This document shows, piece after piece, positions 41 through 60,343 of a stretch of 64,000 bases of DNA; position 1 is the stretch's first letter; each line of letters begins with the position of its first letter. Origin of the DNA: an uncultured virus (IMG/VR IMGVR_UViG_3300025771_000019) (lineage: Duplodnaviria; Heunggongvirae; Uroviricota; Caudoviricetes). Below the pieces are notes generated by a model. It worked only from the letters and a program-made list of their open reading frames with translations. It did not search any database and was not told the origin of the DNA. Location of the stretch: IMG/VR virus record IMGVR_UViG_3300025771_000019. The stretch is one strand, 5' to 3'. Position numbers and translations under genes: made by a program.

Positions 41-2248
41 TTATAATGCGTCAACCTTGAGGATGGTACTATCTACTGTAATGTCTGTTTTATCAGAAGT
101 TACTGCATAAGTATTCGCACTCTGTCCTGGTCCAACGACTGGTGGACCACCGACAACATAATCATCTTTACGTGTTAATGAGAATTTAGATCCAATATTT
201 GTTTCTACTTTTGTTTTATAAACGAATTTATTAAATGCTTTAGTACCTGCGGGGTGCACTGTTCTTTTGAGAATCTCATCATATTCGATTGGATCAACTA
301 CACCTTGAATCTCATAGGAGAATTCTTGGTAATAATCGTTATCTCGTATTTTATTCTCAGGCTTAATATGAGAATTAAAGTTTCCATGATAACCTTCGGT
401 CACACCCTGTTCTAGCGCGCTTAGAGTACCTTGTGCAACTACATCGTTGTTTGCATCTCTTAGATAAACAGTTTCTTGGTCAATATAACCAAAACCTGAA
501 TTAATTACTTTTACTTTATTAATGCGGCCGATTGAGAATTCAGTAAGAGTACTTACAAGAGCGTTTTCACCGAACTTTCTAGTATCATAGTTTCTTTCTG
601 CTGTAATTACATTGTATGAGTTACTTTCATGAACAATTGTTCCATTAGTAAACCCATAATAAGCATATGGTCTTACTTGTAAAACTTTGTTTGTAGAATC
701 AAATCCTATAATCTCACCCGTTACTGTTCCTTGTGTAATTATATCGCCTTTATCAAAGTTAGCACTAAATTCTGAAAGAACAAGGTTTTGATCGTGTCTT
801 TCAAAAGCTTCCATTACTGGATCTCTCAAAATAGCAAACACGTCATTTTCATATGATGCACCCGGATTAACATTAACAAGAGTTCTAACCTTACCGATAT
901 CAAACGGCGTAAGATCGAATGCCTCGTTAATAACAGAATCCAAGGCAGGAGTTGGATCAGCACCAGACATAGGAACTAGAGCTGGTGGCACGGTACTATA
1001 ATTTGTAGAGTTAATTGGAACATTTAAAAAGTTTCCAATAATATCTGTGATAAGCTCAACATTTTCTATATTACTTAAAGTGACTGTTACGTCATCAGGA
1101 TCTCCAGTATCTGGGAATAGATCGCCCGGCGACGAACTGTTTAATTCAGACAAAGAAAAATCAGCAGGTTGGAAAGTAATATTAGGTGATCTGTCGAGTG
1201 TTGAGATTGCTGTACCGTCAAACTCATTTCCAGCATTCATTTTAACGCCAACAGCAGCAGGGTTTTGCCCAGTTACAAAACCTTCATTTCCACTCGCATC
1301 TCTGAGTCTTTCTTCAATCACGAAGTCTTGGTTTTCATTATCTAGAATAATAACTTGATCTGAAACGTGCAATCTTGTTTCAGCAGTCGAATAACCAAAA
1401 CCACCATCTACAATTGTATATGAGATCGTTCCCGTAAATTCATCTTGCAATTCTGTAACAATTGCTCTGCCACCTTTACCAAGAGAAGATGTAAAGTCAA
1501 AAATATCACCGATATTATTATCTGTAGTTCTAGGTGCAGCCTGATCAATATCAATAGAAGAAGCAGAGCCTTGTACCTGACCAAACTTAACATCAGTGCC
1601 GTCTACCCTTGTAATAATATCATCGAATTTAATAAACGTGCCTTTAACATCGTTAATATAAATTACAGGAACAAGAGTTCTATTCAACATAATAAAGTTA
1701 ATTTTATCAACAGCAGCTCGCGCACCAGAAATACTACCGACAATGTTCTTACCAGCTAGTGAATCATATTCGTATATAATAGCTGAATTTGCTGGTGATG
1801 GGAATTCAGCATTGTTTGGGAACAACTGAAGATATGTACCAGTTTTCCAAGAAGAATCAGAGGGTTTTAGAATATTAGATGCAGGATAATATATCTCTAC
1901 ATCTTCTTGAAAGAACATTCTAAAGAAAAGAATAATACCGCTCTCAGAACCTTTTCTTCTATAAAGGCTCATAATATTTCTTACGATGAACTTGACCGTA
2001 CCTACGTCATCAAGTGGCAGATCTGCAAGAAACTTTTTCTGAAAGAATATAATCATTTCAGATAGAGTTGTAGCAATGTCACGATATTCAAACAAACGTC
2101 TGTTATTATACACAGACATATTAGTTTGTGTTTCTAGAAACTTATAGTATTCTTCTACAAATTTTACAAGCTCGTGACCTTCATCCCTGTAAAGTGCAGG
2201 GAACTGCAGCTGGATCTGGTGAGCAATATTTTTCTCGATTTTCGCCAT
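41..2248 (-). CDS. Baseplate wedge subunit (T4 gp7-like)
   Basis: 735 aa; N-terminal FVEEYYKFLE / LYRRKGSE...FFRMFF and C-terminal DNDYYQEFSY...VHPAGTK motifs typical of T4-like wedge proteins; directly downstream of gp6. Confidence 0.8.
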   Translation of the reverse strand: MAKIEKNIAHQIQLQFPALYRDEGHELVKFVEEYYKFLETQTNMSVYNNRRLFEYRDIATTLSEMIIFFQKKFLADLPLDDVGTVKFIVRNIMSLYRRKGSESGIILFFRMFFQEDVEIYYPASNILKPSDSSWKTGTYLQLFPNNAEFPSPANSAIIYEYDSLAGKNIVGSISGARAAVDKINFIMLNRTLVPVIYINDVKGTFIKFDDIITRVDGTDVKFGQVQGSASSIDIDQAAPRTTDNNIGDIFDFTSSLGKGGRAIVTELQDEFTGTISYTIVDGGFGYSTAETRLHVSDQVIILDNENQDFVIEERLRDASGNEGFVTGQNPAAVGVKMNAGNEFDGTAISTLDRSPNITFQPADFSLSELNSSSPGDLFPDTGDPDDVTVTLSNIENVELITDIIGNFLNVPINSTNYSTVPPALVPMSGADPTPALDSVINEAFDLTPFDIGKVRTLVNVNPGASYENDVFAILRDPVMEAFERHDQNLVLSEFSANFDKGDIITQGTVTGEIIGFDSTNKVLQVRPYAYYGFTNGTIVHESNSYNVITAERNYDTRKFGENALVSTLTEFSIGRINKVKVINSGFGYIDQETVYLRDANNDVVAQGTLSALEQGVTEGYHGNFNSHIKPENKIRDNDYYQEFSYEIQGVVDPIEYDEILKRTVHPAGTKAFNKFVYKTKVETNIGSKFSLTRKDDYVVGGPPVVGPGQSANTYAVTSDKTDITVDSTILKVDAL

Positions 2249-39212: not shown

Positions 39213-39801
39213 ATTTTAATCCATTATACATATCAATTGGCGCATCCCATTCAGCAGGGTTTGCTATGCTGTTTACTATTCCATTTTTAAATGTGTTGTG
39301 TGGAATCTTTTCGTGCACAAGAAACCTATCAATGCCTGGATACTTTCTCATGAAGTAATCCTTATTAGATAGAAAGTGTTCCCATACATCACGTTGCTGT
39401 CCTGCCGTCCATGTAATTACAGAACTATTTATGTGCACGTCATAGGCATGCGGAGCCATGTAAAGATCGTCTTTCCAATAGTCTTTTAAAATAGTAAGAC
39501 CATTCCATGTAATAAACTCAGACGGATCTCTTTTAATATCCATATCTAAATCAAAGTAAAGACACTTACCTTCTACAGGAAAGTCTTTACTGAACATAGC
39601 AAGCTTATTCCACCAGTATTTTAGTTTTGGTTTTTCAAATACTGGAATACATGGAATAGCTACACCGTAAGTATCGTCTGTATAACAATAGAATTTTGCT
39701 AATGGAAAATACTTTACTAATTGTTCTGTTAATCTGTTTACGTGTTCATAGCTGTACTTATCGCCATGTTTTACGAATATAATGTTTAACAATCCTGCCA
39801 T
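39187..39801 (-). CDS. Glycosyltransferase (GT-A)
   Basis: KHGDKYS..HV..L, CYTDD, WWNKL, YFDLD, NSSV. Confidence 0.75.
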   Translation of the reverse strand: MAGLLNIIFVKHGDKYSYEHVNRLTEQLVKYFPLAKFYCYTDDTYGVAIPCIPVFEKPKLKYWWNKLAMFSKDFPVEGKCLYFDLDMDIKRDPSEFITWNGLTILKDYWKDDLYMAPHAYDVHINSSVITWTAGQQRDVWEHFLSNKDYFMRKYPGIDRFLVHEKIPHNTFKNGIVNSIANPAEWDAPIDMYNGLKYELQRTDL

Positions 39802-40862
39802 CTAAATCCTCGTATGCCATTCATAATTTCAATTTTACGATATAACTCATCGTACATAGACTGATCAAATTCAGACACTAATCCTTGATTGACTGTATCT
39901 AATTCTTCTTGTGTTCGAGTAGTTAAATAGTTCATTTCAGGCGGATTAAATAATAGATTATAACTTCTAAGTTCATTGTCTCCTATAAACACGTGAGGAT
40001 TATCAGCATAAAAATCATTGATTTCTTGCATATCAAGTATATTAAAATAAGATACAGTAGGAACTACTTTCGGGACAATACCAGCTTCTTCGTTGAGCTT
40101 TTTAATTGTTTCTAGTGTATTGTTAAAATTAGTTCCACGTATCCATTCATATTTTCTGCCAATATGATCTAGACTCGCTACCATTTCTACTTTTTTAAAT
40201 TTTTTTAAAGTGGTCATAAATCGTTTTGAAATTAAAGAGCAATTTGATGTAAGCCACACAGTACAATCAGGATTTACTTCTGCTAACTCTTCAAGTATTT
40301 TAGCATTTCGTAGATCAGAAAAAGGTTCACCACCTTTAATATGCAATACATGCAGATCAGGCAATAAGCTTATAATCTTTTCAATATCAGACTCAGTCAA
40401 ATTAACATGAGGCTGTTGATGATTACCAAATAAATGATCGATTGTGGCCCATTTAGTACTGAAATAACTACTACACATTATACAAGTTTGGTTGCAAATA
40501 TTGCTTGTAGTAAATTCTAAATAACTAATCTTTCCCGGCTCATATTTTCTCCATTCTGGATTCAGCCAATAGAATGCTCCAGCGTGGGTACCATCTTTTT
40601 GTTTTATTCTTGAAGCACAATTATCGCATGCAACAGTTCCCATAATACCTTTTTCTTCAAGCTCTCGTCTTATATGCATATTCAAATCAGAGTAGGGAAA
40701 GTCTTCATATTCAGTTGCAGTAGCAATTTTGTATTCTTCTATACTATCAGTTGCAATAATTTCATTTATGTGTCTAGTGAATACCATGCAACAAGGCTTG
40801 AGCCAACCTTGTGGATCAATTACTAACGCATGATCTGGCCATCTACACGCGGGTATATTCAT
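39786..40862 (-). CDS. Radical SAM protein with N-terminal twitch/SPASM-like domain
   Basis: CNQTCIMC, KGGEPF; N-terminal C..P...G..PCC..C..C. Confidence 0.9.
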   Translation of the reverse strand: MNIPACRWPDHALVIDPQGWLKPCCMVFTRHINEIIATDSIEEYKIATATEYEDFPYSDLNMHIRRELEEKGIMGTVACDNCASRIKQKDGTHAGAFYWLNPEWRKYEPGKISYLEFTTSNICNQTCIMCSSYFSTKWATIDHLFGNHQQPHVNLTESDIEKIISLLPDLHVLHIKGGEPFSDLRNAKILEELAEVNPDCTVWLTSNCSLISKRFMTTLKKFKKVEMVASLDHIGRKYEWIRGTNFNNTLETIKKLNEEAGIVPKVVPTVSYFNILDMQEINDFYADNPHVFIGDNELRSYNLLFNPPEMNYLTTRTQEELDTVNQGLVSEFDQSMYDELYRKIEIMNGIRGFRWQDC

Positions 40863-42025
40863 TTCAGTCTCTCAATATATTGACGATACATTTCAATATT
40901 TTTAATGCAAATTTGTTCATCAGTACCAAACTCAATAAGAGCACTGTTTAAATAGTTTCTAAGCTTATCTAAATACTCTGGAGTCTCTTCTTCTACTGCC
41001 CAAGGTGCGATGTCTTGCGGGGATGTTGTTCCACCCATAGGAGCCAAGACATGATAGGCAAAAGAAAGATTTTTTCTATTACAAAATGATAGTATTTTAG
41101 GTAAAGTCCACACGTTATCTTTACTAATCACAAATGAACAACCGACATCAGCAACACCATATGATTGAAGTTCATCTATATGTTTTAAAACCGTTTCTAA
41201 ATTACCATTTCTTCTTAAATCTTGATATATCTCAGGATCAATTGAATCTAATGAAATCGTAAATTCAGTGTTTGGCCTTTGAGCAAATTTTCTCGCGTAT
41301 CCATTTAAGATACTGCCGTTTGTTGTAAATTGAATGCGAAGCTTTTCTGGGTTTTCCTCTTCTACCATCTTAAGAATTTTATGTACTATTCTTTGAGCAA
41401 ATGGCTCCCCGCCTGTAAAGTTTAATTTATAAACTTCATGTATAATTTCACGTAAAGATTCTACGAAAGCATCACCAACTTCTGGATCATCATATATACT
41501 TGTAAATCTATGCGCAGTTTCTGGATTCTTCTTTACAAAATCTTCCATATGTTGAGAAGAATGATATGGACTGCAGAATTTGCATTTATAATTACAAGTA
41601 TTTGAAAGTTCTAATTCTATATCCCTTGGAACAGGATGATTTAAGTCTCTCTCACCACCTACCCAATCTGCATCTAAACTGCTTGGAGGTTTATCTGCAT
41701 CGCATTGCTCTTTGCAATACCTGCACCATTCATGCAAATCACCCATCATAGAAGCTTGACGAATTTCTTCAAAGCCTTCATCATTTTGCCATAGATCTCT
41801 TAAGCTGTCTCCTGGTTTCCATCGTGCCTGATTGGTAAAAGGATCTTTTTCGTAAGGTGTAGTATCTTTATGCTCTCTTACATGGCGCATAACAAACGGG
41901 CAGACCTTTAAATTGCCTTTCTTATTAATATGAATAGCTTGAAAAGGCGCCCAACAACTTACTGTTTTATATAAAGCTGGTAGTTCCGGTCTTCTATACT
42001 TGTTAATTTTATCGACGTATTTCAT
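40859..42025 (-). CDS. Radical SAM protein with N-terminal twitch/SPASM-like domain
   Basis: CNYKCKFC, TGGEPF, TTNGS, ISLDS. Confidence 0.9.
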   Translation of the reverse strand: MKYVDKINKYRRPELPALYKTVSCWAPFQAIHINKKGNLKVCPFVMRHVREHKDTTPYEKDPFTNQARWKPGDSLRDLWQNDEGFEEIRQASMMGDLHEWCRYCKEQCDADKPPSSLDADWVGGERDLNHPVPRDIELELSNTCNYKCKFCSPYHSSQHMEDFVKKNPETAHRFTSIYDDPEVGDAFVESLREIIHEVYKLNFTGGEPFAQRIVHKILKMVEEENPEKLRIQFTTNGSILNGYARKFAQRPNTEFTISLDSIDPEIYQDLRRNGNLETVLKHIDELQSYGVADVGCSFVISKDNVWTLPKILSFCNRKNLSFAYHVLAPMGGTTSPQDIAPWAVEEETPEYLDKLRNYLNSALIEFGTDEQICIKNIEMYRQYIERLK

Positions 42026-43221
42026 TTATATTCCTTTAAATATGGAGCCAACTCATATATGTCTTCGTTATTTTCTCGTGCTACTAAACAAAAATCAATC
42101 CATTCAATCATTCTTTTTCTTATTTCCGCAGGAGTTTTAAACGGATCTATTGTTGTTTCAACACTCATTACGTTGTTTAAATTACTTACATGCAGTTTAT
42201 CACTTACCCAATATGTGTCTGATCTTTTAGTAAACTTAGATTCTAAATAATCAAATAGATTTTTCTTTCCTTCTTCCTGATGTTGTATTGTTAAGAAGTT
42301 AGGTGAACAATACTTTGGAAACGTTACAAGGTTCGCCATACTGATACGAGGAACACCTGGCACATCAATAAAATAATCAATGAGTTCTGGAAGATGCATC
42401 CAGTTATAAACCGAAACAGTGGATACTACGATAACATGCCTGCCTGCATATTTATGATATCGTTTAATGTTGTTTATTGTTTTTTGAAAATTGCCTCCTC
42501 GAATCCAATCATACATTTCATGCACACCGTCAATGCTTGCTTGGACATGAACTTCATCAATGCGATGTAGCAACTCAATTACATAATCAGTAACTAACTG
42601 AAAATTAGTGCAAATCTCAACACGGCACTTCGGATTCGTTTCAGCAAGCTTTTTAAGGATAAGAATATTATTTGGATCGGCGAACGGCTCGCCACCTTTA
42701 ATCGTAAGATGCTGTAGATGTGGTACTAGATCTAATACCTTATCCACATCTTCTTTCGTCATCTTATACATTTCAGTATGAAACTTATGGTTCTCATCTC
42801 GCCAAGTAAGGCCAGATTCTACAGCCATTTTCTCGTATGGCGCCCATTTAGAACTATACTTACCAGAGCAAGTAACACACATCTGGTTACAAATATTGCT
42901 CGTAGTAATTTCCAAAAATCGAATCGGAGTAATTGGCGCGCCCTTATCTTCTTCATATGTTGGAAAAATAAAGCGATTATAAGAATCGAAACGGGCTATA
43001 CGACCAGCTTCCCAGTGTACCTTACACACGTTACATTGTTTTGGAAAGTTACCTTCTTTAAAATCTTTACGAAGCTTATCATAAACTTCACCATTAAAGA
43101 ACTCAGTAAGATCAGGAACGTCTTTAATATGAGATATAGATGTGTTGTCCCCAGCACAGCATAGAACTATTTCGCCAATAGGATTAATTGTTATTCCCGT
43201 TTCAGGCACCATACATTTCAT
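42022..43221 (-). CDS. Radical SAM protein with N-terminal twitch/SPASM-like domain
   Basis: CNQMCVTC, KGGEPF, SIDG...YDWIRG. Confidence 0.9.
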   Translation of the reverse strand: MKCMVPETGITINPIGEIVLCCAGDNTSISHIKDVPDLTEFFNGEVYDKLRKDFKEGNFPKQCNVCKVHWEAGRIARFDSYNRFIFPTYEEDKGAPITPIRFLEITTSNICNQMCVTCSGKYSSKWAPYEKMAVESGLTWRDENHKFHTEMYKMTKEDVDKVLDLVPHLQHLTIKGGEPFADPNNILILKKLAETNPKCRVEICTNFQLVTDYVIELLHRIDEVHVQASIDGVHEMYDWIRGGNFQKTINNIKRYHKYAGRHVIVVSTVSVYNWMHLPELIDYFIDVPGVPRISMANLVTFPKYCSPNFLTIQHQEEGKKNLFDYLESKFTKRSDTYWVSDKLHVSNLNNVMSVETTIDPFKTPAEIRKRMIEWIDFCLVARENNEDIYELAPYLKEYK

Positions 43222-45294: not shown

Positions 45295-45492
45295 TTATCC
45301 ACGGTCGTATCGGCGTAATCTCTCCTCTCGACCTATTCTCTTACCATAACCAAGATCTTTCATAATTCTCATACGCTCTTCTTCAGCGTAATTAGACCAT
45401 TCAGAGATCTGTTCTTTCGTTCTACCACAGCCTATGCAATAACCCTTAGAAGGATCAATATAACAGATAGACATGCATGGTGTTACGTACAT
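45295..45492 (-). CDS. DUF1289-like Cys-rich protein
   Basis: TPCMSIC...YCIGCGRT.EQI..W. Confidence 0.85.
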   Translation of the reverse strand: MYVTPCMSICYIDPSKGYCIGCGRTKEQISEWSNYAEEERMRIMKDLGYGKRIGREERLRRYDRG

Positions 45493-45575: not shown

Positions 45576-45887
45576 ATGGCCGAAGATAAAGGTTACCATC
45601 CAGCGGATACAAACGGCGACGGTGTTGTAGATGACGTCGAACGCGAAATGTATCTTGAATTTAAAAGAAAAGAATTAGAAGACAAGGACGCACAGCGTGA
45701 TGCTATGCGTGGGATGACATGGTTTGCTTTATTCGGCATGCTACTCTATCCATTCGCAATTGTCTTAACATCATATTTTGGTTTAGATACTGCAGCAACT
45801 ATTGTTGGTGATATTGCTCCAACATATTTTGTTGCTATTTCTGCTTTGGTTGCAGCATTCTTTGGTGCTGACGCTATCCGTAAGTAG
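45576..45887 (+). CDS. Two-TM membrane protein with EF-hand-like loop (holin-like)
   Basis: DTNGDGVVDDVE; two hydrophobic helices; AGGAG RBS. Confidence 0.7.
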   Translation: MAEDKGYHPADTNGDGVVDDVEREMYLEFKRKELEDKDAQRDAMRGMTWFALFGMLLYPFAIVLTSYFGLDTAATIVGDIAPTYFVAISALVAAFFGADAIRK

Positions 45888-45895
45888 ATAAATCA

Positions 45896-45926
45896 AAAGG
45901 GAGGCCTTCCTAGGTGCCTCCCTTTC
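45896..45926. terminator. Bidirectional intrinsic terminator
   Basis: AAAAGGGAGGC-loop-GCCTCCCTTT with T-tracts on both strands. Confidence 0.85.
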
Positions 45927-46312
45927 TATCTGTTTGTTTCGATGTACAGCACCCGGCTAGCTTTCCATTCGGTACTAGCGACTCACCGACCTAGATAAGA
46001 GGGCCTCTTCCTCACCTAGGGTTTGTTGGGTACATTCGACGTGATTGTCAGGCTTTCCCCGTGCGCCATAAGTAACGAGGACTGAGTTCTTACTGCCTGG
46101 TCGAGTTTTCCTCAGTCCTCGCTAATTCTGGTTTTCACGTCACCGGTATTTCACGGGCGGTATATTCACCAGAATTTTCGCGCGCAATCCGCGGATTGCT
46201 TGCCCGACCTTGTTTACTAACGACGCGCAGGCTACGTCAGGCAATATATCTCTTTACGTCATTTTTGGAACTTTAGAACCAGGGATTTGACTACCACTCA
46301 ATATTGCCTTGA
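45896..46312 (-). ncRNA. Candidate ~410-nt structured non-coding RNA of unknown class
   Basis: No ORF in the track, visibly GC-richer than its flanks, at least six stems plus an H-type pseudoknot, early promoter upstream and terminator downstream. Confidence 0.7.
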
Positions 46313-46319
46313 TACTATT

Positions 46320-46350
46320 AATATATACTTTTTCTAGTAAATGTCAACCC
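46320..46350 (-). promoter_or_regulatory. Early sigma70-like promoter driving the candidate ncRNA
   Basis: GGGTTGACA-N16-TATATT. Confidence 0.8.
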
Positions 46351-46366
46351 TTTTATTGAATTTTTT

Positions 46367-46567
46367 TCAAATTTCTTCTACCGTTACCTTATACAACTTA
46401 CCGTTGAAGTCTTCCATAGTAATGGTTTTCTTCGTTGACAGCATGTAACCATCGATAGGATGCAAATCCATTTTTACTCTACCAACCTGAGTAATCTTGT
46501 TTTCTGGTTTATCATTGTTAAAAGCGGTACTGATCACGTGTGCGATATAGTCGCAATAAGCCAACAT
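46367..46567 (-). CDS. Hypothetical early protein
   Basis: GAGG RBS; 66 aa. Confidence 0.6.
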   Translation of the reverse strand: MLAYCDYIAHVISTAFNNDKPENKITQVGRVKMDLHPIDGYMLSTKKTITMEDFNGKLYKVTVEEI

Positions 46568-47008: not shown

Positions 47009-47060
47009 TTTATATTCCTCGTTGATTGTAGAACTATTATATCAAAGTTTGAAAGAGTTG

Positions 47061-47288
47061 TCAACCCTTTTTTTGAAAAAACTTCACGAAATCTAAAAAT
47101 AATTCGTAAGCTACTTCCTCAACATAGTCGATTGGAGTATGACACAACAAAGGCTCAGCTGCATACGCATCCAAAACGATTTGTTTGTAAGCAGGGAATG
47201 ATGTAACGTTCTCATTCTCAGCTTGTTCATCGATTACATCTACGATGCGTTCTTCCATTTCCATTACTAATTCTTTCATTTGACCCAT
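47061..47288 (-). CDS. Hypothetical early protein (MGQMKEL)
   Basis: AAGGAG RBS; promoter -35 at 47339-47344. Confidence 0.65.
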   Translation of the reverse strand: MGQMKELVMEMEERIVDVIDEQAENENVTSFPAYKQIVLDAYAAEPLLCHTPIDYVEEVAYELFLDFVKFFQKKG

Positions 47289-47347
47289 ATTGGTCTCCTT
47301 TCATCTTATATTAATAATATAGTACTTTCAGAATGCAATGTCAACCC

Positions 47348-48412: not shown

Positions 48413-49603
48413 TTATAGTTCTTTTAGTTGTGGATGCAGTTCATATATGTTTATGTTTCTTTTTAAATTCATAAACGAAGCAAACATGTGCATTCGACTG
48501 CGCCAATTGTTATAATCTTCTATGGTCGGTATGATCGGATCGTTACTCATAAATTCTTCATTTTTAATAAACATGTGCCTATGCAAATTATCTGGCCATT
48601 TCTTATAGTTATTTCGCCAATCTTCTAGTTCTTTAAAAGTTAGAATTCTTTGAGGTGCAGCGTATTTTGGTTCGTGAACCCATCCCATCTGTGTAAAGCT
48701 TACTTGAGTGTCGTTTACTCTTTGATTCCAGTAATCAAGCACTTCATTGTAGTTCCACATATTAAAAATGTTTAAGCGATGATTGATATTAATCCATCCA
48801 GTAATTCCAGATGATTTCCATCTTTCAATATTTTCTATTGTTTGCTCAAAAGGAGTGGATCTTACCCATTCGTATGTTTTACCAATACCATCCATTGAAA
48901 CGGATATCTTTACTGGATTTGAAGCTTTAGATAGTAAGTCAATATATCGCTGTGGAACCTTTGACATGTTTGTTGTCATATCAATCAAGCACTTATCATT
49001 TACTTTTACGAGTTCTTCTAAGATGTAATAGTTGTTATTGTCAGCGAAAGGCTCACCGCCTTTTACAACGATCTGTTCTAAGTTAGGAAGTATAGGTAAG
49101 ATCTTTTCAATGTCTGAATCCGACATTCTGTATAATGAAGCACCAAAGTCATTGAAGCCCGGTTCACCGGGATTCTTCCAGGATTCTAAGTCAAGTGACA
49201 TTTCAGTTGCTTCCTGCTCTAACCCAATCCATTTAGAACTATAATAACTTGAACATGTCACGCAGGTTTGATTGCATAGATTTGAAGTTGTAAATTCTAG
49301 AAAGCGTATCGTCTTATCTGTTGGAATACTCGCTCTACGAGATTCACCTTTTACATTTGCGTGAAACCATGAATTCTTCATGCCAAGTTTAGCGTTGTTT
49401 AAACAGTATCCACAAACTTTACTTACCAAAGGCTCTTTATCTTGACGCAGAGATTCTAAATCTGAATGGTTGTCCCATAATTCAGCAATATTATCTACAT
49501 TACTAATATGATTAAAAGACCAAGTTCTTTCTGCTGCACAGCATATAGAAAGATTACCGTCTGGTTGAATTGTTAGTGAATTGTGAGGAGCAGTACAATA
49601 CAT
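48413..49603 (-). CDS. Radical SAM protein with N-terminal twitch/SPASM-like domain
   Basis: CTAP...ICC, CNQTCVTC, KGGEPF, SMDG; close paralog of 42022 and 39786. Confidence 0.9.
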   Translation of the reverse strand: MYCTAPHNSLTIQPDGNLSICCAAERTWSFNHISNVDNIAELWDNHSDLESLRQDKEPLVSKVCGYCLNNAKLGMKNSWFHANVKGESRRASIPTDKTIRFLEFTTSNLCNQTCVTCSSYYSSKWIGLEQEATEMSLDLESWKNPGEPGFNDFGASLYRMSDSDIEKILPILPNLEQIVVKGGEPFADNNNYYILEELVKVNDKCLIDMTTNMSKVPQRYIDLLSKASNPVKISVSMDGIGKTYEWVRSTPFEQTIENIERWKSSGITGWININHRLNIFNMWNYNEVLDYWNQRVNDTQVSFTQMGWVHEPKYAAPQRILTFKELEDWRNNYKKWPDNLHRHMFIKNEEFMSNDPIIPTIEDYNNWRSRMHMFASFMNLKRNINIYELHPQLKEL

Positions 49604-59213: not shown

Positions 59214-59238
59214 AGCACTGCCTTTTCGGTTGTTAAAT

Positions 59239-59321
59239 TGGTGCCCGTGGCCGGACTCGAACCGGCAAGCCTAAGCGACACATTTTAAGTGTGTTGAGTT
59301 TACCAATTTCTCCACGCGGGC
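59239..59321 (-). tRNA. tRNA-Leu(TAA)
   Basis: Cloverleaf; anticodon arm ACACA-CTTAAAA-TGTGT, variable arm, GGTTCGAGTCC, 3' ACCA. Confidence 0.95.
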
Positions 59322-59326
59322 TTTTC

Positions 59327-59402
59327 TGGTGCCCCCACACGGACTCGAACCGCGGACCTACTGATTACAAATCAGTTGCTCTACCAGCTGAGCTATAGGG
59401 GC
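59327..59402 (-). tRNA. tRNA-Thr(TGT)
   Basis: 76 nt; ACTGA-TTTGTAA-TCAGT, GGTTCGAGTCC, 3' ACCA. Confidence 0.97.
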
Positions 59403-59415
59403 ATTACTTATTTAT

Positions 59416-59493
59416 TGGCCTGCGCTGAGGGACTCGAACCCCCGACCTAGTGCTTAGAAGGCACTTGCTCTAATCCAGCTGAGCTAAGCGCAG
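59416..59493 (-). tRNA. tRNA-Arg(TCT)
   Basis: AGTGC-CTTCTAA-GCACT, GGTTCGAGTCC, 3' GCCA. Confidence 0.95.
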
Positions 59494-59602
59494 ATTCTTT
59501 AAGCGTTATCAATAAAACGCTGGAAAATTTTCTCTGGTATCATACAAAGCTGTATATAAACAGCCCAGAAACCAATATTCCAAATGATGATTTCAGGCCA
59601 GT

Positions 59603-60061: not shown

Positions 60062-60312
60062 CTTTATAAACCTTTTCTGTGTCATTGTGGCCGTGGCGAT
60101 ATCCCACAACATATCCAATTACTCCACCAAGGATTGTACAAATTAAAGCCATTTCTGTTACAATACTCATGATGCTCACCCTTGTTGAATAAAGTTTGGT
60201 TGAATGCTACTACAACCATTGCAGTATTCAAATGGATCTGAGTATCCAAAAACAGCTAGCATGCCGTCGTATTCTTGTTCTATCATGTTTGATTCCTTCT
60301 TATTATTATATT

Positions 60313-60343
60313 AATATAGTACTTTCTTGGAGAATGTCAACCC
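60313..60343 (-). promoter_or_regulatory. Early sigma70-like promoter (upstream of small ORFs and tRNA cluster)
   Basis: GGGTTGACA-N16-TATATT. Confidence 0.8.

What the first reader, a model, noticed from the sequence alone, without database searches (positions are those of the whole stretch)
45896..46350. ~410-nt highly structured non-coding transcript with its own early promoter and terminator
Seen: this is the only long ORF-free, GC-richer stretch in a gene-dense genome, bounded by TTGACA-N16-TATATT (46347-46320, -) and a terminator (45896-45926). Complementary pairs: 46239-47/46301-09 (9 bp); perfect 16-nt palindrome GCAATCCGCGGATTGC at 46184-99; 46124-32/46168-76 (9 bp); 46076-86/46111-21 (11 bp); 45990-94/46016-20 enclosing an AAGAG/CTCTT hairpin; 45939-47/46030-39 (one bulge) closing a domain with an H-type pseudoknot (45956-60/45975-79 crossed with 45969-73/45985-89). 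It lacks recognisable tRNA, tmRNA, RNase P or group II intron hallmarks. Inference: a possibly undescribed large phage ncRNA expressed immediately on infection (anti-defence decoy, antitoxin mimic, protein sponge or ribozyme).
Basis: partly seen in the sequence, partly recalled or inferred. Interest (0 to 1): 0.85.

Follow-up and report, generated by a model that had tools for sequence, protein, structure and literature searches.

The report
Modular stable RNA unit of phage
This gene-free stretch of an uncultured T4-like phage makes a real, heavily folded, expressed RNA of about 415 bases that is in no RNA catalogue, but it is a chain of separate RNA modules that related phages use around their tRNA genes, and what they do is unknown.

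Summary
Window 45888-46366 is the longest ORF-free gap.

It matches no Rfam family. Contigs from all four metatranscriptome runs I laid cover it.

It is not one large fold. It is a chain of modules:
- M1: a 112-nt pseudoknotted 5' module (46311-46200). 15 of its 30 pairs change on both sides across 21 sequences.
- A window-only palindrome hairpin.
- Two hairpin modules, H_A and H_B.
- A 3' pseudoknot module (D3b) plus a terminator with a conserved loop. 10 of its 24 pairs change on both sides across 9 sequences.

In related uncultured phages:
- Module order is shuffled.
- M1 heads tRNA arrays, a tmRNA or ORFs, or stands alone.
- D3b plus terminator closes tRNA arrays or the gene 32 region.
- tRNAs can sit between M1 and D3b.

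Best reading: a tRNA-less "stable-RNA operon", closest in kind to T4 rnaC/rnaD and, more loosely, to GOLLD/ROOL. Function is unknown. This scan reached the same reading before on other DNA (e1-5875496).

The parts
46320..46347 (-). sigma-70-like promoter TTGACA-16-TATATT, preceded by an A-rich stretch
   Evidence: scores it 11 of 12. A similar promoter sits in the same position in 15 of 24 related loci.
46200..46311 (-). Module M1, a 112-nt pseudoknotted 5' RNA. Helices: P1 46309-46301/46247-46239; S2 46297-46294/46284-46281, crossing S4 46291-46288/46261-46258; S3 hairpin 46280-46267 with loop CUAAAG; S5 hairpin 46238-46222 with loop UAGCCUGCG; tail AAGGUCGGGC 46211-46202, which may pair with the S5 loop.
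   Evidence: Model R1 scores it 134.7 bits and finds no other credible copy in the window. 93.5% of 628 cells are paired, 15 of 30 pairs change on both sides, and 0 of 500 shuffles reach the covariation score.
46184..46199 (-). Perfect 16-nt palindrome hairpin, specific to this lineage
   Evidence: Seen. It is missing from L006/L090 as part of a 20-nt gap.
46124..46176 (-). Module H_A, a hairpin with an invariant core and three GUGAA..ACC-like repeats
   Evidence: The core (47 nt) is 100% identical in the L090 and L093 lineages and 98% in L088. It lies 5' of M1 in L093. It is inserted in a different RNA in L151, L158 and L159.
46076..46121 (-). Module H_B, an 11-bp stem with a conserved internal loop
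   Evidence: The stem is kept through compensatory changes in L088 and L102 (read). It lies 5' of M1 in L088, L102 and, in altered form, L093.
46022..46067 (-). D3a, the 5' half of the 3' domain (GGGGAAAGCC ... GUACCCAA)
   Evidence: Present in the window, L090, L088, L124 and L151. Absent from L131, L133, L093 and L159.
45990..46021 (-). Variable hairpin
   Evidence: L090 and others carry a different sequence here that still pairs.
45927..45991 (-). Module D3b: an H-type pseudoknot (45989-45985/45973-45969 crossing 45979-45975/45960-45956) plus the hairpin 45949-45930
   Evidence: Model R2, which covers D3b plus the terminator (45888-45992), scores 124.8 bits and finds a single copy on this strand.
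45888..45926 (-). Intrinsic terminator. The stem covaries and the loop CACCUAGGAAGG is conserved. It lies 9 nt after the stop of the convergent ORF, so it may act in both directions.
   Evidence: 6 of 9 stem pairs change on both sides. The loop motif occurs once in the window.
45576..45887 (+). Convergent 103-aa ORF with no family match. It is a neighbour, not part of the RNA.

Best explanation
The stretch is one transcription unit of an uncultured T4-like phage. It makes a ~415-nt non-coding RNA built from independently folding, independently inherited modules: M1, palindrome hairpin, H_A, H_B, D3a, variable hairpin, D3b, terminator. It is a tRNA-less version of the 'stable-RNA / tRNA operon' of related phages.

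Shown:
- The modules are real structures, supported by covariation.
- Their order is shuffled between phages.
- M1 normally sits right after a sigma-70-like promoter at the head of tRNA arrays, a tmRNA or ORFs, and once stands alone.
- D3b plus terminator closes tRNA arrays or the gene 32 region.
- Each module occurs at most once per record searched.
- The RNA is found in metatranscriptomes.

Inferred:
- The primary transcript accumulates as a stable RNA because M1 and the D3b-terminator cap its two ends.
- M1, and probably H_A and H_B, act in trans by binding a conserved host or phage partner through their invariant unpaired nucleotides.
- Where tRNAs follow, RNase P cleavage 8-15 nt downstream would release M1.
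For: Phage type: baseplate wedge, gp5-like hub lysozyme, DNA end protector, clamp loader and topoisomerase II hits mark a T4-like phage.

M1:
- The pattern found 14 viral and 24 metagenome loci, which collapse to 26 distinct sequences.
- 21 were aligned. 93.5% of cells are paired, 15 of 30 pairs change on both sides, 0 of 500 shuffles reach the score, and slid controls pair at 32-41%.

Context of M1 in 24 loci:
- A promoter of 10 of 12 or better ends 6-13 nt before P1 in 15.
- A tRNA or tmRNA follows on the same strand within 900 nt in 16.
- The first tRNA starts 8-15 nt after M1 in 7.
- In L092, M1 is followed only by two terminators.

Module order:
- Window and L090: M1-H_A-H_B-D3.
- L088: H_B-M1-H_A-D3.
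- L093: H_B'-H_A-M1-(tRNA-like)-tRNA-Thr-tRNA-Pro-D3b.

D3b without M1:
- After gp32 in L131 (PF08804, E 4.8e-47), and after gp32 plus one ORF in L124.
- After tRNAs in L133.
- Structure: 96.3% of cells paired, 10 of 24 pairs change on both sides.

H_A is also inserted in another unannotated RNA.

Copy number is 0 or 1 per record:
- R1 (M1): window 1, G001 1, G003 1, G004 1, three other records 0.
- R2 (D3b plus terminator): window 1, G001, G004, G005 and G006 1 each, two records 0.

Conservation: H_A, H_B, D3b and the terminator are 100% identical between the window and L006. The adjacent ORF shows several substitutions within about 40 nt.

Expression:
- 18 of the 22 runs listed are on record as RNA, from 19 studies.
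- In 4 of 4 runs laid, RNA contigs cover the unit.
- Depths: 82 against 3.5-6.3 for flanking contigs in X2, and 16.6 against 2.3-4.9 in X4.
Against: - No end mapping. Only assembled contigs could be laid, and these cannot show starts, ends, strand or processing. DNA carry-over in RNA libraries is not excluded.
- In X1 and X3 the covering contig runs on upstream into the neighbouring ORF. Read-through from upstream promoters is therefore possible.
- H_A, H_B and D3a have only three or four distinct homologues, so their independence rests on a few lineages.
- Their 100% identity could reflect recent exchange rather than selection.
- The position-specific use of M1 (always 5') and D3b (always 3') fits a purely cis-acting role as well as a trans one.
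- Nothing here shows a partner, a cleavage event or a phenotype.
Confidence: 0.6

Rival explanations
1. It is one integrated large ncRNA of the GOLLD/ROOL kind. The modules are domains of a single tertiary, possibly multimeric, assembly, and tRNAs are tolerated in a linker between the 5' and 3' domains.
For: - All four lineages that carry H_A together with M1 also carry H_B (or a variant) and D3b in the same transcript.
- In L093 the tRNAs lie between M1 and D3b. GOLLD sometimes has tRNAs in its linker, and both GOLLD and ROOL lie near phage tRNA islands (PMC12286853, passages read).
- The terminator loop keeps a 6-nt palindrome through two double changes: CCUAGG in 6 of 9 sequences and CUGCAG in 3 of 9. 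Many variable hairpins carry CUGCAG in their loop. This is what kissing-loop self-association would need.
Against: - Module orders are neither conserved nor circular permutations of one another.
- M1, D3b and H_A each occur without the others.
- No GOLLD or ROOL hit up to E = 10.
- Six-base palindromes are not distinctive overall. The RNA has 11 against 5.5 +/- 2.2 in shuffles, and 140 of 1272 windows of the same DNA reach 11.
- The long-range helix in the minimum-energy fold clashes with the covarying S5 hairpin. Its partner sequence is absent in L088.
Confidence: 0.13
2. M1 and the D3b-terminator are purely cis-acting transcript ends. M1 is a 5' leader that protects against 5' decay or Rho termination, or helps processing. 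D3b is a 3' trailer that blocks 3' exonucleases. The window unit is then an 'empty' or hairpin-only cassette with no trans function.
For: - M1 is always 5' of varied cargo and D3b is always 3' of varied cargo, including gene 32.
- The unit is deeper than its flanks in RNA contigs.
Against: - M1 stands alone before two terminators in L092.
- The cargo-less window unit keeps its modules 100% identical across lineages.
- M1 occurs at most once per record, although the window alone shows three strong promoters within 1 kb. A general-purpose leader would be expected on several operons.
Confidence: 0.17
3. One or more modules are self-cleaving ribozymes that trim the precursor, like the HDV-like theta ribozymes beside phage tRNAs.
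For: - Both M1 and D3b are compact pseudoknots with many invariant unpaired nucleotides.
- They sit directly beside tRNAs in relatives.
- Ribozymes next to phage tRNAs have a precedent (10.1101/2023.06.13.544163, seen only as a search listing and the start of its abstract).
Against: - No hit to any Rfam ribozyme model up to E = 10.
- The helix order of D3b and of the M1 core leaves no room for the P3 hairpin of the HDV fold. This comparison is against a fold recalled from memory, not tested.
- A 375-nt RNA contig spans all internal junctions without a break. This is weak, because contigs cannot show cleavage.
Confidence: 0.06
4. It is an anti-defence decoy or protein sponge. This is a special case of the trans-acting reading.
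For: - Promoter of early type.
- Relatively deep in RNA contigs.
- H_A holds three GUGAA..ACC-like repeats and is re-used as an insert in another RNA, as a protein-binding hairpin might be.
Against: - No similarity to CRISPR repeats, ToxI-like repeats or retron RNAs was seen in Rfam.
- No defence or counter-defence gene was identified beside it.
- This is entirely inference.
Confidence: 0.1

Closest known systems
Phage T4 small stable RNAs rnaC (species 1, 139 nt) and rnaD (species 2, 119 nt)
   Same: - Both are non-coding structured RNAs of a T4-type phage. The T4 record annotates rnaC and rnaD as 'small, stable RNA' directly after tRNA-Arg in the tRNA cluster (NC_000866 annotation).
- The modules found here sit in tRNA operons of relatives.
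- That the function of rnaC and rnaD is still unknown is recalled, not checked.
   Different: - No sequence or structure match: R1 scores at best 7.6 bits on the T4 region, and that hit lies outside rnaC/rnaD. R2 finds nothing.
- In this window the unit has its own promoter and terminator and no tRNA. The three tRNAs lie 13 kb away.
- M1 is at the head of the operon, whereas rnaC and rnaD are at the tail.
GOLLD and ROOL RNAs (large phage/prophage RNAs near tRNA islands)
   Same: - Phage-borne, ornate and pseudoknotted, of unknown function, and located near tRNAs.
- tRNAs are sometimes found inside the GOLLD linker (PMC12286853 passages; PMC5737381 passages). L093 has tRNAs between M1 and D3b.
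   Different: - No CM hit.
- About 415 nt, against about 580 nt and over 800 nt.
- Module order is shuffled and the modules occur singly.
- Multimer formation is untested.
HDV-like theta ribozymes beside phage tRNAs
   Same: Small pseudoknotted RNAs adjacent to phage tRNA genes (search listing and start of abstract only).
   Different: No Rfam HDV-like hit. The helix order does not fit the HDV fold as recalled. No cleavage data.
Candidate structured RNAs (csRNAs) mined from IMG/VR (PMC10690425)
   Same: That catalogue holds 8,495 unnamed 29-151-nt candidates from the same collection. They include terminators and elements next to gp32 (passages read). M1 or D3b may be among them.
   Different: This could not be checked. 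The alignment and CM files were not searchable here.

Membership tests
Any Rfam 15 family | Covariance-model score at or above the family's gathering score | tested here: not met
   At gathering score the whole window gives only three tRNAs at 59242-59493. For 45700-46500 up to E = 10, the best hits are 21 bits or less, far below the gathering scores.
tRNA / tmRNA | Cloverleaf or tmRNA call by ARAGORN | tested here: not met
   None in 45888-46366.
GOLLD / ROOL | Match to the family's covariance model | tested here: not met
   Neither family is listed up to E = 10.
GOLLD / ROOL | Phage-borne and near tRNA genes, with tRNAs sometimes inside a linker | tested here: met
   Met in relatives: 16 of 24 M1 loci have a tRNA or tmRNA downstream, and L093 has tRNAs between M1 and D3b. 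In the window itself the tRNAs lie 13 kb away.
GOLLD / ROOL | RNA-only homo-oligomer (nanocage) | not testable with these tools
   Palindromic loops are compatible with it.
T4 rnaC / rnaD | Homology in sequence or structure | tested here: not met
   Neither R1 nor R2 finds a credible hit in T4 68500-74500.
T4 rnaC / rnaD | Stable RNA co-transcribed with, and processed from, a tRNA precursor | tested here: inconclusive
   Relatives have the modules inside tRNA operons. The window unit has no tRNA. Processing cannot be seen in contigs.
Self-cleaving ribozymes (HDV-like/theta, hammerhead, twister, pistol, hatchet) | Match to a family model, or observed cleavage | tested here: not met
   No model hit. 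Cleavage is not testable here.
Intrinsic (rho-independent) terminator | GC-rich hairpin followed by a U tract | tested here: met
   9-bp stem at 45926-45896 followed by UUUUGAUUU. The stem covaries in 6 of 9 pairs.
Riboswitch or attenuator leader | Aptamer followed by an alternative terminator or an RBS-sequestering platform, upstream of a consistent gene set | tested here: not met
   tRNAs start 8-15 nt after M1 with no intervening terminator. The downstream cargo is heterogeneous: tRNAs, a tmRNA, unrelated ORFs, or nothing.

The most novel reading that the evidence does not exclude
M1 is a new class of catalytic or ligand/protein-sensing double-pseudoknot RNA. It is single-copy, sits at the head of the stable-RNA/tRNA operon of a group of T4-like phages, and has about 55 invariant positions. 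Alternatively, or in addition, the whole composite self-associates through its palindromic loops (CCUAGG, CUGCAG) into a GOLLD/ROOL-like RNA-only assembly that can carry tRNAs in its linker.
Probability: 0.12. Interest if true: 0.85.

Novelty: new variant of a known kind. Interest (0 to 1): 0.6.

Why it matters
T4's two 'stable RNAs' in its tRNA cluster have no known function (recalled, not checked), and the function of the large phage RNAs GOLLD and ROOL is also undescribed (PMC12286853).

This locus shows that a group of uncultured T4-like phages keeps a toolkit of at least four well-conserved, covariation-supported RNA modules. The modules are shuffled among tRNA operons, the gene 32 region and free-standing units.

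Here the modules appear without any tRNA or ORF cargo, yet the unit is covered by RNA-library contigs that are deeper than the flanking ones. That makes this unit a clean substrate for testing what such modules do: stability, processing, partner binding or assembly. M1 in particular is a compact target of riboswitch or ribozyme grade, 112 nt with a covariation-supported pseudoknot and a second possible one.

Tried and rejected
- Known families: Rfam at gathering score and at E up to 10 gave nothing. ARAGORN gave nothing.
- blastn against GenBank phages gave no match for the region or for M1 alone. Records very near the window's genome may be left out of that collection's results.
- Small protein: the 34-aa TTG ORF at 46140-46244 overlaps the 20-nt stretch that L006/L090 lacks. 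A conserved peptide is therefore rejected.
- The long-range helix in the minimum-energy fold, between the S5 region and the start of D3a, is rejected. It competes with the covarying S5 hairpin, and its partner is absent in L088.
- Palindrome enrichment is not distinctive.
- The bacterial and archaeal genome scan with the M1 pattern gave one match, in a Clostridiales MAG. Model R1 does not hit it, so it is taken as chance. No host assignment came from it.
- Chance pattern matches dropped by eye: L122, and L128, L134, L138, L137, L140, L141, L143 and L145.
- PHROGs and Pfam left most neighbouring ORFs unnamed. No partner protein emerges from the context.
- R1 and R2 gave nothing credible on the T4 tRNA region.
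- Parts of the flanks without RNA-contig cover, and contig ends at 45922/45923 in two runs, are not used as evidence of RNA ends. The terminator is shared with other loci, and assembly graphs branch at such places.
- The supplements of PMC10690425 could not be searched fully.
- Records behind metagenome loci could not be searched by handle. Viral records were used instead.
- Resemblances to pistol and HDV folds came from memory only. No model hit supports them.

Full report
**What is there.** The window comes from a T4-like myophage. Large ORFs hit baseplate wedge subunits, the gp5-type hub/lysozyme, the DNA end protector, the clamp loader and topoisomerase II.

Window 45888-46366 is the longest stretch free of ORFs of 60 aa or more: 479 nt, GC 0.453 against 0.383 for the window. 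The next longest is the tRNA cluster at 59214-59592. The largest ORF inside is 34 aa.

On the - strand:
- A TTGACA-16-TATATT promoter-like site lies at 46347-46320.
- A 9-bp GC-rich hairpin followed by UUUUGAUUU lies at 45926-45888.
- The RNA between them folds to -142.5 kcal/mol, z -3.79, with 0 of 100 shuffles as good. The opposite strand reaches z -2.27.

No tRNA or tmRNA is called. No Rfam family matches at gathering score or meaningfully up to E = 10.

**Relatives.**
- The window's assembly is not held. A 62-kb IMG/VR record carries the identical unit.
- Flanks of the convergent 103-aa ORF were fetched from 80 viral loci. They gave one near-full homologue, L006: 87% identity over 458 aligned columns, lacking the 16-nt palindrome and carrying a different variable hairpin. 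Two further loci share only the promoter and the first ~110-140 nt, followed by tRNA genes.
- A pattern from the shared part found 14 viral and 24 metagenome loci, or 26 distinct sequences. One of these, L122, is a chance match judged by eye.

**Module M1 (46311-46200).** I aligned 21 of the 26 distinct sequences. L093, L094, L116 and L118 were dropped as near-duplicates of kept rows in this part, and L122 as chance.

Overall:
- 93.5% of 628 cells form standard pairs.
- 15 of 30 pairs change on both sides.
- 0 of 500 shuffles reach the covariation score.
- Slid controls pair at 32-41%.

| Helix | Pairs that change on both sides |
|---|---|
| P1 | 7 of 9 |
| S3 hairpin | 3 of 4 |
| S4 | 2 of 4 |
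| S5 | 2 of 4 |
| S2 (crosses S4, forming a pseudoknot) | 1 of 4 |
| S5 loop with 3' tail (second possible pseudoknot) | 0 of 5, never varies |

- The S5-loop/tail pairing stays intact in a diverged copy found only by the model.
- About 55 columns are invariant.

**Where M1 sits.** Across 24 loci:
- A promoter of 10 of 12 or better ends 6-13 nt upstream of P1 in 15. Two more have it 51-57 nt upstream, with an extra hairpin between.
- A tRNA or tmRNA follows on the same strand within 900 nt in 16.
- The first tRNA, usually tRNA-Asn, starts 8-15 nt after M1 in 7.

Elsewhere M1 precedes ORFs (L087, L106, L109, L114, L121). In L092 it precedes nothing but two terminators and a convergent gene.

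**The 3' module.** A D3b pattern found 26 viral loci in 18 distinct groups. Seven groups (8 loci) are chance matches in GC-rich coding-like DNA, judged by eye.

D3b plus terminator occurs without M1 in these places:
- Directly after gp32 in L131 (PF08804, E 4.8e-47).
- After gp32 plus an 87-aa ORF in L124.
- After tRNAs in L133.

Model R1 finds no M1 in those loci.

Pair counts on 9 sequences, with duplicates dropped:
- 96.3% of 216 cells are paired, and 10 of 24 pairs change on both sides.
- By helix: terminator stem 6 of 9, pseudoknot helix 45979-75/45960-56 2 of 5, hairpin 45949-30 2 of 5.
- The other pseudoknot helix (45989-85/45973-69) does not vary apart from 2 unpaired cells.

The terminator loop is conserved and holds a 6-nt palindrome: CCUAGG in 6 sequences and CUGCAG in 3.

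It has no 5' partner in L131, L133, L093 or L159.

**Shuffling.** Module order differs between lineages:

| Lineage | Order |
|---|---|
| Window, L090 | M1-(palindrome)-H_A-H_B-D3 |
| L088 | H_B-M1-H_A-D3, directly after a small ORF |
| L093 | promoter-H_B variant-H_A-M1-(uncalled tRNA-like stretch)-tRNA-Thr-tRNA-Pro-variable hairpin-D3b-terminator |

These orders are not circular permutations of one another.

In L151, L158 and L159, H_A forms the tip of a hairpin in a different unannotated RNA. That RNA also has no Rfam hit.

The stems of H_A and H_B keep pairing through compensatory changes in L088 and L102 (read).

**Copy number and conservation.** Each model hits 0 or 1 times per record:
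- R1 (M1): window, G001, G003 and G004 one each; G002, G005 and G006 none.
- R2 (D3b plus terminator): window, G001, G004, G005 and G006 one each; G002 and G003 none.

H_A, H_B, D3b and the terminator are 100% identical between the window and L006. The neighbouring ORF differs at several sites.

**Expression.**
- 22 runs hold the stretch. 18 are on record as RNA, from 19 studies in freshwater, aquatic and salt-marsh samples.
- All 4 runs laid have RNA contigs over the unit.
- X2: 45923-46297 at depth 82, against 3.5-6.3 beside it.
- X4: 45944-46261 at 16.6, against 2.3-4.9.
- X1 and X3: contigs at 8.1 and 26.9 that also run upstream.
- Contigs cannot show ends, strand or level, and DNA carry-over is possible. 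This supports presence in RNA pools and hints at abundance, no more.

**Reading.** The unit is best seen as the tRNA-less form of a phage 'stable-RNA / tRNA operon' assembled from separate RNA modules.
- Single copy per record, the free-standing M1 of L092 and the cargo-less but perfectly conserved window unit argue that at least M1 has a function of its own, probably in trans.
- The strict 5' and 3' placement of M1 and D3b argues that they also, or instead, serve the transcript's ends.
- I put 0.6 on the modular stable-RNA reading. What the modules do remains open.

**Comparison with what is known.**
- Closest in kind are T4 rnaC and rnaD, annotated as small stable RNAs beside tRNA-Arg. Models R1 and R2 find no homology to them.
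- GOLLD and ROOL share the phage and tRNA-island context, and GOLLD sometimes has tRNAs in its linker (PMC12286853 and PMC5737381, passages read). There is no model match, and the modular behaviour differs.
- Theta ribozymes are a precedent for small RNAs beside phage tRNAs (listing only).

**In print?** Four full-text searches found no description of these modules. The IMG/VR csRNA catalogue (PMC10690425, passages read) may contain them, but its alignment files could not be searched.

**Earlier findings.** This scan reached the same reading on another genome that shares sequence words with M1 (e1-5875496). Its 'after gene 32' lead was checked here and holds.

Noticed in passing
L094 about 320-480 (+), also L101 and L118; L151, L158 and L159 around the H_A match: There is a second unannotated structured RNA of about 165-215 nt, closed by a terminal helix. 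It lies between M1 and tRNA-Gly in some phages and is intergenic before ORFs or tRNA-Pro in others. In L151, L158 and L159 the H_A module is inserted at the tip of one of its hairpins. It has no Rfam hit.
   Followed up: partly
L086 6-428 (-), L087 893-1293 (-), L094 1519-1811 (+): Related phages carry a permuted, alphaproteobacterial-type tmRNA with tag ANDNVAPSDYALAA downstream of M1. This hints at an alphaproteobacterial host. The window holds no tmRNA.
   Followed up: no
L093 about 1385-1490 (-); also L089 and L110: Between M1 and tRNA-Thr there is a ~105-nt stretch with an acceptor-like stem and a T-arm-like GGTTCGATTCC. Neither ARAGORN nor Rfam calls it. It may be a tRNA with a long insert or a tRNA-like RNA.
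   Followed up: no
window 45896-45926: The terminator hairpin lies 9 nt after the stop of the convergent 103-aa ORF (45576-45887, +). A T-rich run follows on that strand too, so it may terminate both transcripts.
   Followed up: no
window 45576-45887 (+): The 103-aa ORF has an acidic N-terminus and a hydrophobic C-terminal half. It matches no Pfam or PHROG family. It has relatives in at least 595 viral contigs and in Methylophilales phage Melnitz and Roseobacter phage CRP-207.
   Followed up: partly
window 39786-43221 and 48413-49603 (-): There are four paralogous ORFs of 358-399 aa. Two of them, 42022-43221 and 48413-49603, match radical-SAM PHROGs. They bracket the region.
   Followed up: no
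window 47036-47064 and 47316-47344 (-): Two more strong sigma-70-like promoters (12 of 12 and 11 of 12) lie within 1 kb upstream on the same strand, before small ORFs. This looks like an early-gene block.
   Followed up: no
window 60119-60336: This is the third ORF-free gap: 218 nt, GC 0.339. It was not examined.
   Followed up: no
window 45295-45492 (-): A 65-aa DUF1289 protein (PF06945, E 1.3e-16) is encoded just downstream of the unit's neighbour.
   Followed up: no
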